A stretch of DNA of 64,000 nt, from the NCBI GenBank assembly GCA_963773005.1, contig CAVYZR010000004.1, forward strand, positions 335,272-399,271, read 5' to 3'. Below are positions 7,050 to 11,060 of the stretch, in pieces (within the stretch, counting starts at the first letter, position 1; each line of letters opens with the position of its first letter). The DNA is from an uncultured Acidobacteriota bacterium (GTDB taxonomy: Bacteria > Acidobacteriota > Vicinamibacteria > Vicinamibacterales > 2-12-FULL-66-21). Below the pieces are notes generated by a model. That model was not told where the DNA came from and ran no database searches. It saw only the letters and a list, made by a program, of their open reading frames with translations. The position numbers and the translations under genes are program-made.

Positions 7050-8114
7050 ATGAAAACGAGTCGACGCGAGTTTCTCGGTGCGGTCGCGGCGTCACCGATT
7101 CTCCTGGGCATGCAGGACAAGGCGGGCTCGAAGGCGCCGATCATGGGCTCGGGCGCTTACACGTATGAAGCGACCCACGACTGGGGCGTGCTCCCGCCGC
7201 AGATCAAGTATGGCAACACCCACGGTGTCGTCGAGGACTCGCAGGGGAACATCTACGTCCATCACACCGTGCACGCGACCAGCGAGAGCGCCGACACGGT
7301 GGTGGTCTTCGATGGCACGGGCAAGTTCGTGCGCTCGTGGGGCAAGGAGTACCGCGGCGTCGCGCACGGCCTGTGGATCCGCAAGGAGGGGCGCGACGAG
7401 TTCCTCTACCTGACGGTCAACGCGGCCGGTGCGAAGCTGTCGCCGCGACCCGAGCTGCAGGCGGTGCTCGTAAAGACGACGCTGGCGGGCGAGATCGTCT
7501 GGAAGATCGACGCGCCGCCGGATTTCGAGGGCTACAAGCCGGGACCGGACGGCGTTGCGCGGCCCTACAACCCGACCAACGTGGCGATCGCGCCCAACGG
7601 CGACATCTACGTCGCGGATGGCTACGGCTCGTACTTCGTGAATCAGTACACCAGCAAGGCCGAGTACATCCGATCCTTCGGCGGACGAGGGTCAGAGCCG
7701 GGGAAGCTGACGGAACCGCACGGCATCTGGGTCGACACGCGCGCGGCCAGCCCGATTCTGGTCGTGGCCGATCGACGCAACAATCGCCTGCAGCGATTCA
7801 CGATGGACGGCAAGCACGTCGACTTCATCACCGGCTTCAGGCTCCCCGGGCATTTCGACGAGTACAAAGGCCTGGTTGTGATTCCCGATCTGCATGGGCG
7901 CGTCACGCTGATGGACAAGAACAACGTGCTCGTCGCGCAGCTTGGAGACTCGAACTCGCCGGAATGGAACAACCCGCTGCGCCGCGAGCCGCGGGATCAG
8001 TTCATCCCGGGCCAGTTCATCTGCCCGCACGGCGCGTGCTTCGATCACGACGGCAACATCTTCGTCGTGGAGTGGGTGGAGGTCGGGCGGGTGACGAAGC
8101 TGCGGAAAGTATGA
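7050..8114 (+). CDS. Tat-exported NHL-repeat beta-propeller protein
   Basis: SRREFL signal; NHL-type repeats PTNVAIAPNGDIYVADGYG, PHGIWVD...VADRRNNRLQ, PHGACFDHDGNIFVVEW. Confidence 0.88.
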   Translation: MKTSRREFLGAVAASPILLGMQDKAGSKAPIMGSGAYTYEATHDWGVLPPQIKYGNTHGVVEDSQGNIYVHHTVHATSESADTVVVFDGTGKFVRSWGKEYRGVAHGLWIRKEGRDEFLYLTVNAAGAKLSPRPELQAVLVKTTLAGEIVWKIDAPPDFEGYKPGPDGVARPYNPTNVAIAPNGDIYVADGYGSYFVNQYTSKAEYIRSFGGRGSEPGKLTEPHGIWVDTRAASPILVVADRRNNRLQRFTMDGKHVDFITGFRLPGHFDEYKGLVVIPDLHGRVTLMDKNNVLVAQLGDSNSPEWNNPLRREPRDQFIPGQFICPHGACFDHDGNIFVVEWVEVGRVTKLRKV

Positions 8115-8130
8115 TCCACAAGCACCCCGT

Positions 8131-10923
8131 TTGACCCTCACCCCCGGCGCTCGCTTCGGGCCGTATGAGATCCTCTCCGCCCTTGGCGCCGGCGGCATGG
8201 GCGAGGTGTATCGCGCCAGAGACACCAGACTGCGTCGCGACGTCGCTATCAAGATCTTGCCCGATGCCTTCGCGCTGGATCCTGAGCGCGTGGCGCGCTT
8301 CAAGCGCGAAGCACAAGTCCTCGCGTCGCTCAATCATCCGCATATCGCACAGATCTACGGCATCGAAGAATCAGGCACCGTGCGAGCCATCGTCATGGAG
8401 GTCGTCGAGGGCAAGACGCTGGCGGAGCTCATCGCCGGTGAGTCGCTCGCGAACCAGGTCGCTGGGAAAAGGCAAGCCCTCGATCTTCCGGACGCGATCG
8501 CGATCGCGCGGCAGATCGCCGAGGCCCTCGTCGCGGCGCACGACCTCGGGATCATTCATCGCGACCTGAAGCCCGCCAACATCAAGATCACCGACGACGG
8601 GACCGTGAAGGTCCTGGACTTCGGCCTGGCAAAGCCGACGGGAGATGACGCGAATCGAGGGGGCACGAACGTCACCGATTCCCCAACGCTGACCTCGCCG
8701 GCGGCGACGGCGCTCGGCCTGATTCTCGGCACGGCCGCCTACATGGCGCCCGAGCAGGCCAAAGGTCAGCGTGTCGACAAACGCGCGGACGTCTGGGCCT
8801 TTGGCTGCGTGCTGTACGAGATGCTGAGCGGTCGTCGCGCCTTTGGAGGCGACGACGTGAGCGACACGCTCGCCTCACTCCTCAAGACTGACCCCGACTG
8901 GCGCGCGCTTCCGGCCGATCTGCCTGGCCCCATTCGGTTACTCATCGAGCGCTCGCTCGTGAAGGATCGCCGGAGGCGCGTGGGTGACATCTCGACGGCG
9001 CTCTTCCTCTTGAACGAGGCAGCCGTGCTGGCGGCGCCGCCGTCCTCATCCACCCCGGCGGCTCCCCGCCGCGCGATCGGATGGCTCGTCGCTGGCGCCG
9101 CCGTTTGTCTCGTCGCCGGCGCCACGCTGGCGACCATCGGGTGGCAGATGTTCGGTCGCCCGGCACCGCCTGCTGTGCAGCGCGTGTCGTTGGCCCTGCC
9201 GGCCGATCGCGCCGTCGACTTCTTTTGGTTTCCGAATCAGTCGCTCGCGATTTCGCCCGATGGCACCGAGGTCGCCTACGTCAGTGCGAACCCAGGTGCT
9301 CCGCCTGAGCGGAGCACTCAGCTTCGAGTGCGTTCACTCGCCAGCCTCGCGATCCGCGATCTGCCCGGCACGTTTCTCGCTCATCAGCCGTTCTTTTCGC
9401 CAGACGGACAATCCGTCGCGTTTTTCACGAGGAACGGGGAACTCAAGAAGATCGCGCTCTCCGGCGGCACCCCCGTGACGCTCGTCGAGAAGATCGCTGC
9501 CAGCCGATGGACATGGGGCGTGTGGCTCGCTTCCGGCACGATCGTCTTCGGTGCATATGGGCCAGGAACGGCCGGCTTGAAGCAGGTGCCGGCCGACGGT
9601 GGCTCGCCGACAACGCTCACCTCCGTCGACGTCGCTCAAGGAGAGTACGTTCACCAACCGTCGTCCTATGTGCCCGAGGCGGGCGCTGTGGTCTTCACCA
9701 CGGGGTTCAGTCAGCTCCGCAGTCCGCGGCTCGAGGCCGTGATCCTGCAGTCGGGCGAGCGTCGCGTGATCACCGAAGACGCCCGTGGCGGCAGGTATCT
9801 TTCAACAGGGCACGTCGCGTTCACGCGCGGCGACGCGGTGCTCGTCGCGCCGATCGACGTGAAACGCCTGGTGCTCGCCGGACCTGCGGCGGCACTCTCC
9901 GACGACGTCCGACGGGACGGTGCGAACTCGGAAGGGCCCACCCCGCAGCTGGCGGTGTCGTCGAACGGCACGCTCGCGTATGTCCCGAGAGCCGACGCCA
10001 CGGCGCGCGTGATGGGACGTGTCGGCCGCGCCGGGGCATTCACGCCCTTCGGACTGGCCGCTGGTCCGAACCGGCGGCCACGCGTCTCGCCGGACGGTCG
10101 GCGTGTGGCGTTCCTATCGCCCCAGCCCGGCCGTTCGGCGTTCGAAACCGCCGTGCACGTGCACGACCTCGTTCGCGGCACCGTGACCAGCCTGACGGAG
10201 GCCGGGTCCGAGTTGCATTCCGTCTGGCGGCCAGATGGCAGGGCCATTGCCGTCTACGCGAGACGCCCGGAGGCGTCAGGCATCTACCTCAAGGACCTCG
10301 GCGGACAGGAGCACCTCGTCCTTCGGGATGATAGTGGGGCCGGCCCTGTGCCTGAATCATTTTCGCCCGACGGCGCGGTGCTCGCCTTCTCGCGCGCCCA
10401 GGGCGGTCAGTCTAGTATCTGGCTGCTGACACTCGGCGAGAAACCGGTGGCACGGCCGCTCACGAGCGCCACGGCCTCCGAATACAGTCCGAAGTTCTCG
10501 CCTGACGGCCGGTGGCTGGCCTACGTCGTCGACCAGCTCGAGCGATCGGAGGTGTACGTCCGCGGCTACCCCAGCGGCGAGCCGATCCCCGTGTCCTCCT
10601 CCGGCGGAGCGGGCCCGGTCTGGAGCCGCGACGGGAGGACCCTCTTCTATGAAAGTGCGCAGTCGGGCGAGCGCATGTTGATGTCGGTTCCGGTGTCGGT
10701 GGACGGCAGCACGCTGAAACTGGGCGCGCCCTCACGCGTGGTGAGCCTCGCACTGGCGGGTGGGGACGAGTATGGTCGGAGCGCCTATTGGGGTCCGGAG
10801 TACGATGTGTTTCCGGACGGCGATTTCGTGATGCTGCGCGGTCCCGGCCCTGGGAGTGCTCGCGAGATCGTCCTCGTGCAGCACTGGTTCGAGGAAGTCA
10901 AGCGGATGCGGCCGGCGCGTTGA
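8131..10923 (+). CDS. Hanks-type Ser/Thr protein kinase with TM helix and C-terminal PD40/TolB-like propeller
   Basis: [37 protein letters not shown] segment; repeated SPDG motifs. Confidence 0.95.
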   Translation: MTLTPGARFGPYEILSALGAGGMGEVYRARDTRLRRDVAIKILPDAFALDPERVARFKREAQVLASLNHPHIAQIYGIEESGTVRAIVMEVVEGKTLAELIAGESLANQVAGKRQALDLPDAIAIARQIAEALVAAHDLGIIHRDLKPANIKITDDGTVKVLDFGLAKPTGDDANRGGTNVTDSPTLTSPAATALGLILGTAAYMAPEQAKGQRVDKRADVWAFGCVLYEMLSGRRAFGGDDVSDTLASLLKTDPDWRALPADLPGPIRLLIERSLVKDRRRRVGDISTALFLLNEAAVLAAPPSSSTPAAPRRAIGWLVAGAAVCLVAGATLATIGWQMFGRPAPPAVQRVSLALPADRAVDFFWFPNQSLAISPDGTEVAYVSANPGAPPERSTQLRVRSLASLAIRDLPGTFLAHQPFFSPDGQSVAFFTRNGELKKIALSGGTPVTLVEKIAASRWTWGVWLASGTIVFGAYGPGTAGLKQVPADGGSPTTLTSVDVAQGEYVHQPSSYVPEAGAVVFTTGFSQLRSPRLEAVILQSGERRVITEDARGGRYLSTGHVAFTRGDAVLVAPIDVKRLVLAGPAAALSDDVRRDGANSEGPTPQLAVSSNGTLAYVPRADATARVMGRVGRAGAFTPFGLAAGPNRRPRVSPDGRRVAFLSPQPGRSAFETAVHVHDLVRGTVTSLTEAGSELHSVWRPDGRAIAVYARRPEASGIYLKDLGGQEHLVLRDDSGAGPVPESFSPDGAVLAFSRAQGGQSSIWLLTLGEKPVARPLTSATASEYSPKFSPDGRWLAYVVDQLERSEVYVRGYPSGEPIPVSSSGGAGPVWSRDGRTLFYESAQSGERMLMSVPVSVDGSTLKLGAPSRVVSLALAGGDEYGRSAYWGPEYDVFPDGDFVMLRGPGPGSAREIVLVQHWFEEVKRMRPAR

Positions 10924-10974
10924 GCAGAGCGACCGATCTTCGGTTCGGCTCGAGCGCGAGCCAAAGAGGCGCGC

Positions 10975-11060
10975 GGCGCCTGCTTCGATCACGATGGCAA
11001 CATCTTCGTCGTCGAGTGGGTTGAAGTCGGGCGCTGACGAAATTACGGAAAGTTGCGTGA
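10975..11060 (+). pseudogene. Displaced duplicate of the last ~27 codons of the NHL gene (8031-8114)
   Basis: Encodes GACFDHDGNIFVVEWVEVGR-(1 nt deletion)-TKLRKVA*; substitutions versus the gene are synonymous. Confidence 0.9.

What the first reader, a model, noticed from the sequence alone, without database searches (positions are those of the whole stretch)
8031..11060. Kinase gene inserted by replacing the 3' end of a protein-coding gene
Seen: the last ~80 bp of the NHL gene (8031-8114) reappear at 10975-11060, about 50 bp after the kinase stop. The copies differ by synonymous changes (gcg/gcc, gac/gat, gtg/gtc, gtg/gtt, gag/gaa, aag/aaa, ctg/tta, gta/gtt), one 1-nt deletion and an extra Ala codon. 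The kinase -10-like box TATGAT (8110-8115) overlaps the NHL stop codon. Inference: both copies evolved as coding sequence, so incoming DNA brought a homologous 3' end plus the kinase and displaced the resident end. This is the same logic as the tRNA array but in a CDS target, with no recombinase in the 2.9 kb unit.
Basis: partly seen in the sequence, partly recalled or inferred. Interest (0 to 1): 0.72.

Follow-up and report, generated by a model that had tools for sequence, protein, structure and literature searches.

The report
Kinase gene inserted behind duplicated gene end
A single protein-kinase gene acquired from other soil bacteria was inserted, with no recombinase of its own, at the very end of another gene and is flanked by two copies of that gene's last 85 bases, showing one way such kinase families can grow.

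Summary
The last 85 nt of the NHL gene (8026-8110) recur at 10970-11053, 46 nt after the kinase stop. These are the only two copies in the genome.

The closest relative (G003) has NHL running straight into the convergent TonB-type receptor, with one copy of the segment. The 2.86-kb kinase fragment is therefore an insertion.

The same kinase gene (87-97% nt) lies in five other, unrelated contexts in three genera, never beside an NHL gene and once beside a tyrosine integrase.

Both joints are illegitimate, with 2 nt (GT) and 2-6 nt of microhomology. The left joint cuts the kinase promoter, and its -10 box (TATAAT in orthologues, TATGAT here) supplies the NHL stop codon.

Copy B carries 9 substitutions of its own. 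However, copy A, not B, resembles the nearest relative, and no donor with an NHL end beside the kinase was found.

Best reading: illegitimate capture plus homologous recombination across the conserved gene end. The rival is one-step capture with target duplication.

Two more insertions flanked by duplicated gene ends exist in this genome. This is a new natural instance of known recombination routes.

The parts
7050..8114 (+). NHL-repeat gene (354 aa, Tat-type signal), last gene of a PSCyt/DUF1549-DUF1553, DUF1501, NHL row
   Evidence: ORF and Pfam NHL hit. Orthologues at 72-89% aa in relatives.
8026..8110 (+). Copy A of the duplicated gene end (85 nt). It is part of the working NHL gene.
   Evidence: The segment 8001-8114 is 96.4% identical to G003.
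8109..8110 (.). Left joint. GT is shared by the NHL end (..AAAGT) and by the kinase upstream region of G002 (..CCCGTATAAT).
   Evidence: Three-way comparison of G003 (empty site), G000, and G002/G023 (kinase loci).
8110..8115 (+). -10-like box TATGAT of the kinase (TATAAT in G002 and G023). It supplies the final base of the last NHL codon and the stop (GTA TGA). The -35 region of the orthologues is not included in the insert.
   Evidence: alignment; sequence
8111..10969 (+). Inserted foreign fragment (about 2.86 kb): a truncated promoter, one kinase gene and 46 nt of 3' flank
   Evidence: Absent in G003, G001, G002, G008 and G004 at this site. Homologous at 90-92% nt to loci in G120, G004, G002 and G023.
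8131..10923 (+). Hanks-type Ser/Thr kinase, 930 aa, TTG start. It has an N-terminal kinase domain, one membrane helix and a C-terminal PD40/TolB-like propeller. The G-loop, [15 protein letters not shown] and APE motifs are intact.
   Evidence: Pfam; translation
10947..10962 (+). Perfect hairpin GGCTCG-AGCG-CGAGCC in the kinase 3' flank, shared with the G023 copy
   Evidence: Read from the sequence and the alignment. Function not tested.
10970..10975 (.). Right joint. CGCGCG equals the kinase 3' flank of G023 and matches the NHL sequence CGCACG in 5 of 6 positions (2 nt of perfect microhomology).
   Evidence: All 52 functional NHL alleles examined have A, not G, at the fourth base.
10970..11060 (+). 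Copy B: a 5'-truncated NHL gene end (...LTKLRKVA*) with a 1-nt deletion. It is non-functional and happens to lie in the kinase reading frame.
11032..11034 (+). 1-nt deletion plus the adjacent G>C change in copy B. The frameshift creates a TGA after ..VGR.
11066..11114 (+). REP-like intergenic element, also present behind the NHL gene of G003 and at 6870-6918 in the window
   Evidence: D4, 76%; I10
11182..14206 (-). Convergent TonB-dependent-receptor-like outer-membrane barrel gene (OMP_b-brl_4), read in two overlapping frames

Best explanation
A 2.86-kb piece of foreign DNA carrying one membrane Ser/Thr kinase gene was joined to the end of an NHL gene by illegitimate (microhomology) joining. 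No recombinase of its own was involved. This step is shown.

The two unlike copies of the NHL end that now flank the insert arose because homologous recombination acted across the very conserved last 85 nt of NHL between two different NHL alleles. This step is inferred. It could have happened in any of three ways:
- a Campbell-type single crossover of a circularised fragment;
- a homology-facilitated illegitimate recombination;
- transfer of an already formed insertion between lineages, with a mosaic outcome.

Copy A stays part of the working gene. The gene loses only its final Ala, because the kinase's own -10 box provides an in-frame stop. Copy B is a 5'-truncated relic of a different allele.

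The kinase sits 16 nt behind the NHL stop, in the same direction, and lacks its former -35 region. It is therefore probably transcribed with the upstream PSCyt-DUF1501-NHL row (inferred, not tested).
For: Insertion:
- G003 is collinear with window 2501-8110 and 10970-16461, and the two alignments overlap by the 85-nt segment.
- A kinase is present at 0 of 13 NHL loci in relatives.

Foreign origin:
- Orthologues at 86-89% aa occur in only 4 of the 111 other family genomes, and the next best paralogue is 46%.
- The contexts share nothing but the gene.
- The G004 and G023 copies are 97.2% nt identical across genera, while the G023 NHL orthologue is 72% aa to the window's.

Joints:
- Homology to G002 and G023 starts at the -10 box and ends at 10975.
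- Microhomology is GT at the left joint and CG (CGCGCG against CGCACG) at the right joint.

No recombinase: the insert holds one ORF with kinase and PD40 domains.

Copies A and B as different alleles:
- Of 9 B-specific substitutions, 1 changes a codon's meaning. The permutation that keeps mutation types gives P=0.006, and the uniform model gives P=3e-5.
- 8 of the 9 fall on sites that vary among 52 functional alleles, and every one of those 8 states is seen in some allele.
- 8 of the 9 lie in the half of the segment that also varies most among functional alleles.
- A (8001-8114) is 96% identical to G003, whereas B is at most 87% identical over its full length to any of 59 other alleles in 400 order genomes.

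Precedent: in E. coli conjugation, 56 of 60 clones were single crossovers of a circular molecule that duplicated 109-950 bp of the homologous segment (PMC3240628, passages read).
Against: - No donor with an NHL end next to this kinase was found: 0 of 6 other contexts, and 59 of 59 other genomes with the NHL end have it once.
- 7 of the 9 B-specific changes are GC to AT, the direction expected of unconstrained decay.
- No allele close to B exists among those sampled.
- A second locus in this genome (GH43) shows that a duplication flanking a kinase-bearing insert can arise within one lineage, without a foreign allele.
- The reading needs at least two events.
- The junctions are not confirmed by reads. 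The Logan contigs laid were too short to bridge them.
Confidence: 0.45

Rival explanations
1. One-step capture with target duplication. A broken or stalled replication end at 8110 was joined to a free foreign fragment, either by end joining (Ku/LigD) or by microhomology template switching. It was then joined back to the sister or template 85 nt behind, at 8026. Copies A and B were identical at birth, and B has since decayed.
For: - Both joints have only 2-6 nt of microhomology, and the fragment ends are arbitrary, with the left end inside the promoter.
- A single event suffices.
- Ku and three LigD-polymerase-like genes are present, one 1.7 kb from Ku.
- At the GH43 locus of this genome, the two copies of a roughly 435-bp duplicated target share derived states against the empty site of G009. 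That means an in-situ duplication.
- B's 9 changes in 83 nt (11%) match A's 3 changes in 27 third positions (11%).
- 7 of 9 B changes are GC to AT.
Against: - Neutral decay should change about half or more of the hit codons. Observed is 1 of 9, P=0.006.
- The changes are not spread evenly: 1 in the left 46 nt and 8 plus the deletion in the right 37 nt. My own binomial estimate for this is about 0.009.
- Every synonymous state of B occurs in functional alleles elsewhere.
Confidence: 0.3
2. Site-specific integration by a tyrosine recombinase acting in trans. Under this reading the 85-nt segment is attL/attR, and the unit is a recombinase-less remnant like a cis-mobilisable element.
For: - Direct repeats flank the unit at a gene's 3' end, the usual place for such islands.
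- One metagenome contig has a P4-type integrase (Arm-DNA-bind_3, Phage_int_M and Phage_integrase domains) directly upstream of an orthologous kinase (L144:146-1438).
Against: - There is no integrase in or next to the unit.
- The other kinase copies carry no NHL-like sequence at either end.
- The site is used in 1 of 60 genomes that have it and 0 of 13 loci inspected.
- The left end of the unit lies inside the kinase promoter, and the gene end is not restored by an element-borne copy.
Confidence: 0.07
3. Artefact of metagenome assembly or of a chimeric read. Under this reading the duplication joins sequences of two co-occurring strains.
For: - The genome is a 12-contig metagenome-type assembly, and several related assemblies show frameshifts.
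- A and B differ like alleles of two strains.
- I could not check reads across the joints.
Against: - The right joint links kinase flank to NHL sequence through only 2-6 shared bases, which no overlap-based assembler would join.
- Two further loci of the same build have clean empty sites in relatives.
- Flanking synteny with G003 is perfect on both sides.
Confidence: 0.05
4. Copy B is the remnant of a second, full-length NHL paralogue: a tandem or imported NHL gene behind the kinase, later deleted down to its last 85 nt.
For: - Copy B looks like a once-functional, divergent allele.
- At the GH43 locus the distal copy has demonstrably lost internal pieces by deletion.
Against: - No relative has two NHL genes or NHL ends at this locus: 0 of 13 loci, and 59 of 59 genomes have a single match.
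- The left edge of B coincides with the end of homology to the G023 kinase flank at a microhomology.
- It needs an extra precise deletion.
Confidence: 0.03

Closest known systems
Campbell-type single-crossover integration of a circular molecule through a short homologous segment. Seen as the main product class in E. coli conjugation experiments (PMC3240628, passages read); insertion-duplication with suicide plasmids is recalled.
   Same: - An insert flanked by a direct duplication of the homologous segment (109-950 bp there; 85 bp here and about 435 bp at the GH43 locus).
- The target gene stays intact when the segment includes its 3' end.
- No dedicated recombinase.
   Different: - This is a natural event in an uncultured acidobacterium.
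- No circular donor or replicon is seen.
- The joints of the segment to the cargo are themselves illegitimate.
- The segment stops 7 nt before the end of the gene, so the stop codon comes from the cargo.
Homology-facilitated illegitimate recombination (HFIR) in natural transformation. As summarised in the introduction of PMC3240628: one homologous end, one illegitimate joint with 3-10 bp of microhomology, and usually a deletion. The original Acinetobacter, pneumococcus and Pseudomonas stutzeri papers are recalled, not read.
   Same: - Foreign DNA is integrated next to a homologous anchor.
- There is a microhomology joint within about 100 bp of the anchor.
- The insert is kilobase-sized.
   Different: - The microhomology here is 2 nt (6 with a mismatch).
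- Target DNA is duplicated, not deleted.
- The anchor would be only about 85 nt at 88% identity.
- The donor with the anchor has not been found.
Microhomology-mediated template switching (FoSTeS/MMBIR; PMC2621351, listing and start of abstract only) and end-joining tandem duplications with captured filler DNA (recalled, mostly from eukaryotes)
   Same: - An insertion flanked by a duplicated target.
- Microhomology at both joints.
- Arbitrary ends of the inserted piece.
- Ku and LigD-like genes are present.
   Different: - These models predict copies identical at birth, and copy B departs from neutral decay.
- This route is rarely documented in bacteria.
Genomic islands and cis-mobilisable elements integrated at gene or tRNA 3' ends by tyrosine recombinases (recalled)
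   Same: - Position at a gene's 3' end.
- Flanking direct repeats.
- A displaced gene-end fragment.
   Different: - No integrase.
- No element-borne replacement end.
- The site is not reused in 59 other genomes.
- The unit's ends are not conserved among its other copies.

Membership tests
Tyrosine-recombinase integrative element / cis-mobilisable element | Integrase gene in the element, or an element flanked by att sites of a known integrase | tested here: not met
   The only ORF with a family hit in 8111-10969 is the kinase. Neighbours within about 8 kb are PSCyt, DUF1501, NHL, the receptor and FG-GAP.
Tyrosine-recombinase integrative element / cis-mobilisable element | The same attachment site is used repeatedly in other genomes | tested here: not met
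   59 of 59 other genomes with the NHL end have one copy only. 13 of 13 inspected loci have one copy.
Tyrosine-recombinase integrative element / cis-mobilisable element | The element carries its own copy of the target's 3' end (attP) | tested here: not met
   There is no NHL-like sequence at either end of the kinase unit in 6 other contexts.
Transposon or insertion sequence | Transposase, terminal inverted repeats, and a short target-site duplication (2-15 bp, recalled) | tested here: not met
   There is no transposase domain. No inverted repeat pairs the two ends among the 25 longest listed. The duplication is 85 bp.
Campbell-type or homology-facilitated integration | Direct duplication of a segment homologous between the incoming DNA and the target, with copies that can differ as alleles | tested here: met
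   The 85-nt copies are 87% alike. Copy B's changes are of the coding type, P=0.006.
Campbell-type or homology-facilitated integration | A donor in which the homologous segment lies next to the cargo | tested here: not met
   0 of 6 other contexts of the kinase qualify. These are samples only, so absence is not shown.
End-joining or template-switch capture with target duplication | Microhomology of a few bases at both joints, and arbitrary ends of the captured piece | tested here: met
   GT at 8109-8110, and CG (CGCGCG against CGCACG) at 10970-10975. The left end lies between the -35 and -10 regions of the orthologues' promoter.
End-joining or template-switch capture with target duplication | The two target copies are identical when formed | tested here: inconclusive
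   The pattern of B departs from neutral decay, but it is GC-to-AT biased. No younger carriers are available.
Hanks-type Ser/Thr kinase with PD40 (TolB-like) propeller | Pkinase domain with catalytic motifs, followed by PD40 repeats | tested here: met
   Pkinase E=1.2e-46 and PD40 E=7.8e-25. The GxGxx[16 protein letters not shown] and APE motifs were read in the translation.

The most novel reading that the evidence does not exclude
Very conserved 3' ends of ordinary genes serve Vicinamibacterales as recombinase-free attachment sites.

Once a cargo gene has been captured next to such an end with a duplication, host RecA can loop it out between the two copies as a circle (gene end plus cargo). 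It can then reinsert the circle into any genome that has the same gene.

Three insertions flanked by duplicated gene ends in this one genome (NHL/kinase, GH43/ECF sigma plus kinase, DUF374/PEGA plus TonB_C-like) would be traces of a general, so far undescribed way of moving single genes and of expanding the kinase family.
Probability: 0.12. Interest if true: 0.75.

Novelty: new member of a known kind. Interest (0 to 1): 0.45.

Why it matters
Soil Acidobacteriota carry very large families of membrane Ser/Thr kinases. This genome has 86 kinase-domain loci in 6.5 Mb, and how these families grow is poorly known.

This locus gives a base-level record of one gain. A single kinase gene travels between genera, lands without any mobile-element machinery, keeps the target gene intact by lending it a stop codon from its own promoter, and plugs into an existing operon.

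The same architecture recurs at two other loci with clean empty sites in relatives. Recombinase-free capture with duplication of a gene end may therefore be a regular route of gene gain in this group. Duplicated gene ends could also serve as a simple computational marker for recent insertions in metagenome-assembled genomes.

Tried and rejected
- Public reads. One run search found 20 soil or bog runs holding 29-36% of the words. Laying Logan contigs of 4 runs gave only short pieces (571 nt or less), mostly conserved kinase motifs of other organisms. No contig bridged 8110 or 10970, and there was no empty-site or circle joint. One low-depth 'go back' joint, 11021>8085 with 7 extra letters, is most simply a relative's NHL end split between A and B. 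No conclusion either way.
- Imported tract left of the insert. The dip in identity to G003 at 7800-8037 is mostly due to G003-specific changes (a cluster at 7963-7986), not to G000. There is no clear donor tract.
- Composition. Kinase GC3 is 0.795, within the range of its neighbours (0.775-0.87), so there is no foreign signature.
- Flanking repeats round the other kinase copies. None was found in 3 of 3 testable contexts, while the G000 positive control was found.
- Empty site for the G002 copy. Its flanks are not conserved in 12 congeners.
- Donor for the GH43-locus insert. Only matches of 73% nt or less were found in 112 family genomes.
- Other repeat pairs. C6:1025278/1029221 and C12:31309/33881 gave no clean empty site. 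Window 58590/62584 lies in a non-conserved region full of ~100-nt multi-copy repeats.
- Sigma-70 promoter scan of 6800-11300: 0 sites, uninformative for this phylum.
- Earlier notes of the scan: nothing near this place.
- The original paper on double illegitimate recombination is not in the library.

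
Full report
**Observation**

The window carries these genes:
- a row of genes on the + strand: PSCyt/DUF1549/DUF1553 (2804-5251), DUF1501 (5285-6844) and an NHL-repeat gene (7050-8114);
- a 930-aa Ser/Thr kinase with PD40 repeats (8131-10923);
- on the opposite strand, an outer-membrane barrel of the TonB-receptor kind (11182-14206) and an FG-GAP/ASPIC gene.

The last 85 nt of NHL (8026-8110) recur at 10970-11053. The match is 64 nt at 91% without gaps and 87% over 85 nt with one 1-nt gap. 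In the whole genome these are the only two copies: E=3.6e-22, against E=0.018 for the next hit of 29 nt.

TATGAT at 8110-8115 overlaps the NHL codons GTA TGA.

**It is an insertion**

The NHL protein was found in 18 of 41 genomes searched, counting G000. I fetched 13 loci.
- None of the 13 has a kinase hit above 80 bits within about 8 kb.
- In five same-genus genomes (G001, G002, G003, G008, and G004 with a distant receptor), NHL is directly convergent with the receptor.
- G003, the closest, aligns to window 2501-8110 at 89.8% and to 10970-16461 at 92.5%. The two alignments overlap in G003 by exactly the 85-nt segment.
- The G003 gene ends ...TKLRKVA* and is followed by the same REP-like sequence that follows copy B.
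- Among the 13 orthologues, 5 end in VA*, 5 in V*, one each in VS* and VG*, and one is unclear.

**The kinase is a wandering single gene**

In 112 family genomes, 73 have a match at E<=1e-150. Only four places besides the window are orthologous:
- G120 at 87% aa;
- G004 at 87%, at a contig end;
- G002 at 89% over residues 252-930, with one TGA inside;
- G023 at 86-90% in two frames.

The next best paralogue is 46%.

At the DNA level these loci are 90-92% identical to the window over these ranges:
- G120: 8132-10934;
- G004: 8180-10892;
- G002: 8109-10939;
- G023: 8110-10975.

The four contexts share nothing else. The G004 and G023 copies, from different genera, are 97.2% identical over 2716 nt, whereas the G023 NHL orthologue is 72% aa identical to the window's NHL.

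Together they added two metagenome contigs, while L067 is the G023 contig again. L147 has the G120-type context, and L144 is a further context.

Of 26 neighbouring ORFs scanned, one is a P4-type tyrosine integrase directly upstream of the kinase in L144. The others are unrelated housekeeping-like genes, plus one paralogous kinase.

No NHL-like sequence occurs in any of the six contexts. No flanking direct repeat occurs in the three contexts that can be tested.

**Joints**

I compared the empty site (G003) with the kinase loci of G002 and G023.
- Left joint. The NHL sequence runs to ..CGGAAAGT (8110), and kinase-locus sequence starts at (G)TATAATCC. GT is shared with G002, and T with G023.
- The insert therefore begins between the -35 region and the -10 box of the orthologues' promoter. 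The -10 box, TATAAT in G002 and G023 and TATGAT here, gives the last base of Val and the stop. TATAAT would equally give GTA TAA.
- Right joint. Homology to the G023 flank runs to 10975 (..GAGGCGCGCG). NHL sequence resumes at GCGCC. The six bases CGCGCG match NHL CGCACG in five positions, and all 52 functional alleles have A at the fourth base.

Both joints are thus illegitimate, with 2 nt of exact microhomology each. The ends of the inserted piece are arbitrary with respect to the gene.

The genome encodes Ku and three LigD-polymerase-like domains, two of them over the family's cut-off. The third, below the cut-off, lies 1.7 kb from Ku.

**Are the two copies decayed twins or different alleles?**

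I polarised the differences with G003 and other alleles.
- Copy A has 3 changes of its own, all C>G at third positions.
- Copy B has 9, plus the deletion.
- Only one of B's nine changes alters a codon's meaning.
- When the nine changes are re-dealt to random sites, at most one altered codon occurs with P=0.006 if the types of change are kept, and P=3e-5 if changes are uniform.
- Eight of the nine, and the deletion, lie in the right 37 nt. My own binomial estimate for such a skew is about 0.009. That half is also the more variable among functional alleles.
- Among 52 functional alleles, 8 of the 9 sites vary, and each of B's eight states at them occurs somewhere. For example, AAA TTA CGG occurs in the G100 allele.
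- B has 8 A/T-ending codons of 27. The 22 fully projected alleles range from 0 to 11.

On the other side, 7 of the 9 changes are GC to AT, as mutation bias would give. No allele closer than 87% over the full length was found in 400 genomes of the order, where 59 of 59 other genomes with the segment have it once.

Copy A (8001-8114) is 96.4% identical to G003, whereas copy B is 87%. Right of B, identity to G003 in 50-nt steps is 94, 66, 90, 70, 80 and then about 92%. B's right half is therefore an island of divergence.

Left of the insert, the dip in identity is mainly G003's own.

**Reading**

Firm points:
- a foreign single-gene fragment was inserted;
- the unit carries no recombinase;
- both joints are illegitimate;
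- the gene end is duplicated.

Open point: how the duplication arose.

The coding-type pattern of B favours two different NHL alleles, and so a homologous step across the conserved end. Candidates are a Campbell-type crossover of a circularised fragment, homology-facilitated illegitimate recombination, or transfer of a ready-made insertion between lineages with a mosaic outcome.

Campbell-type products with duplications of 109-950 bp were 56 of 60 clones in an E. coli conjugation study (PMC3240628, passages read).

The rival is one-step capture with target duplication followed by decay. It needs a single event and is supported by the GH43 locus described below, but it fits B's pattern poorly. 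My weights are 0.45 and 0.30. Integrase in trans gets 0.07, an artefact 0.05, and a deleted second paralogue 0.03.

**Function**

The kinase is intact, with all catalytic motifs, one membrane helix and a PD40 propeller. It starts 16 nt after the NHL stop in the same direction and lacks the orthologues' -35 region. Co-transcription with the upstream row is likely but untested, and the sigma-70 scan found nothing.

**Screen of the genome**

I ran a self-comparison for direct repeats of 45-600 bp spaced 0.8-12 kb apart.
- It gave 235 pairs, of which 46 have only two copies in the genome.
- In 17 of the 46, a gene end lies in the arm next to the gene. Several of these are tandem paralogues.
- The genome has 86 kinase-domain loci.

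Two further cases have empty sites in relatives.

1. Contig 8, GH43 locus.
   - The 3' part of a GH43 gene plus about 75 nt downstream is duplicated around an ECF sigma factor, a TPR kinase and about 850 nt.
   - G009 has the empty site.
   - The distal copy keeps a 44-nt and a 134-nt piece (95%) and has lost 216 nt and about 40 nt.
   - The two copies share derived states against G009, so this duplication arose within the lineage.
2. Contig 9, DUF374 locus.
   - The end of a DUF374 gene (62-65 nt, 83%, a palindromic GC-rich stretch) is repeated behind a PEGA-domain gene and a weak TonB_C-like gene.
   - G008 has the empty site. G001 lacks this insert but holds a different insert of about 1 kb between two copies of the same end, and G003 shares the insertion.
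   - G009 and G001 have other arrangements with extra copies of the arm.

Three other pairs gave nothing clean. This screen covers one genome and is not exhaustive.

**Limits**

- No read-level check of the joints was possible.
- Closer relatives are not available, because the collection holds one genome per species.
- Collection scans return samples.
- The ancestral states used rest on G003 and a few outgroups.
- Papers on HFIR in Acinetobacter, pneumococcus and Pseudomonas stutzeri, on double illegitimate recombination and on cis-mobilisable elements are recalled, not read.
- For PMC2621351 and the SPDIR preprint (10.1101/2023.11.22.568220), only the listings and the starts of the abstracts were seen.

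Noticed in passing
G000 contig 8, 14226-20467 (locus L280 5227-11468): Second insertion of the same build. A GH43 gene's 3' part is duplicated (a 134-nt piece at 94.8% plus a 44-nt piece) around an ECF sigma factor, a TPR Ser/Thr kinase and about 850 nt. G009 has the empty site. The two copies share derived states, and the distal copy has lost 216 nt and about 40 nt.
   Followed up: partly
G000 contig 9, 319961-323189 (locus L300 962-4190): Third case. The palindromic GC-rich end of a DUF374 gene (62-65 nt, 83%) is repeated behind an inserted PEGA-domain gene and a weak TonB_C-like gene. G008 has the empty site, G001 holds a different ~1-kb insert between two copies of the same end, and G003 shares the insertion. 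G009 and G001 show other arrangements with extra copies of the arm, so this site may be a hot spot.
   Followed up: partly
window 12440-12714: The TonB-receptor-like gene is read in two overlapping frames (11182-12714 and 12440-14206), with the frame change near 12690-12700. G003 shows a frame change in the same gene, while G001 is in one frame. This could be a real frameshift or an assembly error.
   Followed up: no
locus L144 146-1438: On a 5.4-kb soil metagenome contig, a P4-type tyrosine integrase lies directly upstream of an orthologue (84% aa) of the window's kinase. This hints that the gene also travels on integrative islands.
   Followed up: partly
loci L064 735-820 and L066 10659-10744: ARAGORN calls a tRNA-Ser(cga) inside the kinase coding sequence of the G004 and G023 copies, but not in the window's copy. 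This is most likely a false positive.
   Followed up: no
window 58590-58648 and 62584-62642; also 58475-58575, 61660-61766, 62390-62532: A 59-nt two-copy repeat (91.5%) flanks another kinase (58861-61488) in a tandem kinase region that is not conserved in congeners. The same region holds ~100-nt elements with dozens of copies per genome in all five congeners searched.
   Followed up: partly
window 8026-8110 and orthologues: The last ~85 nt of the NHL gene are unusually conserved at the nucleotide level: 80-96% across families of the order, with third positions nearly fixed in the first half. Whole proteins drop to 56-75% identity by comparison. This makes the segment a good substrate for recombination between distant lineages.
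   Followed up: partly
window 10921-11036: Copy B lies in the same reading frame as the kinase. Reading through the kinase TGA would add 37 residues, ending at the TGA created by the 1-nt deletion. This is probably coincidence (one chance in three).
   Followed up: no
locus L064 (G004 contig 3), around the kinase start: The G004 copy has a different promoter and first ~16 codons. Homology to the other copies starts at the conserved G-loop, which suggests recombination with a paralogous kinase at that motif.
   Followed up: no
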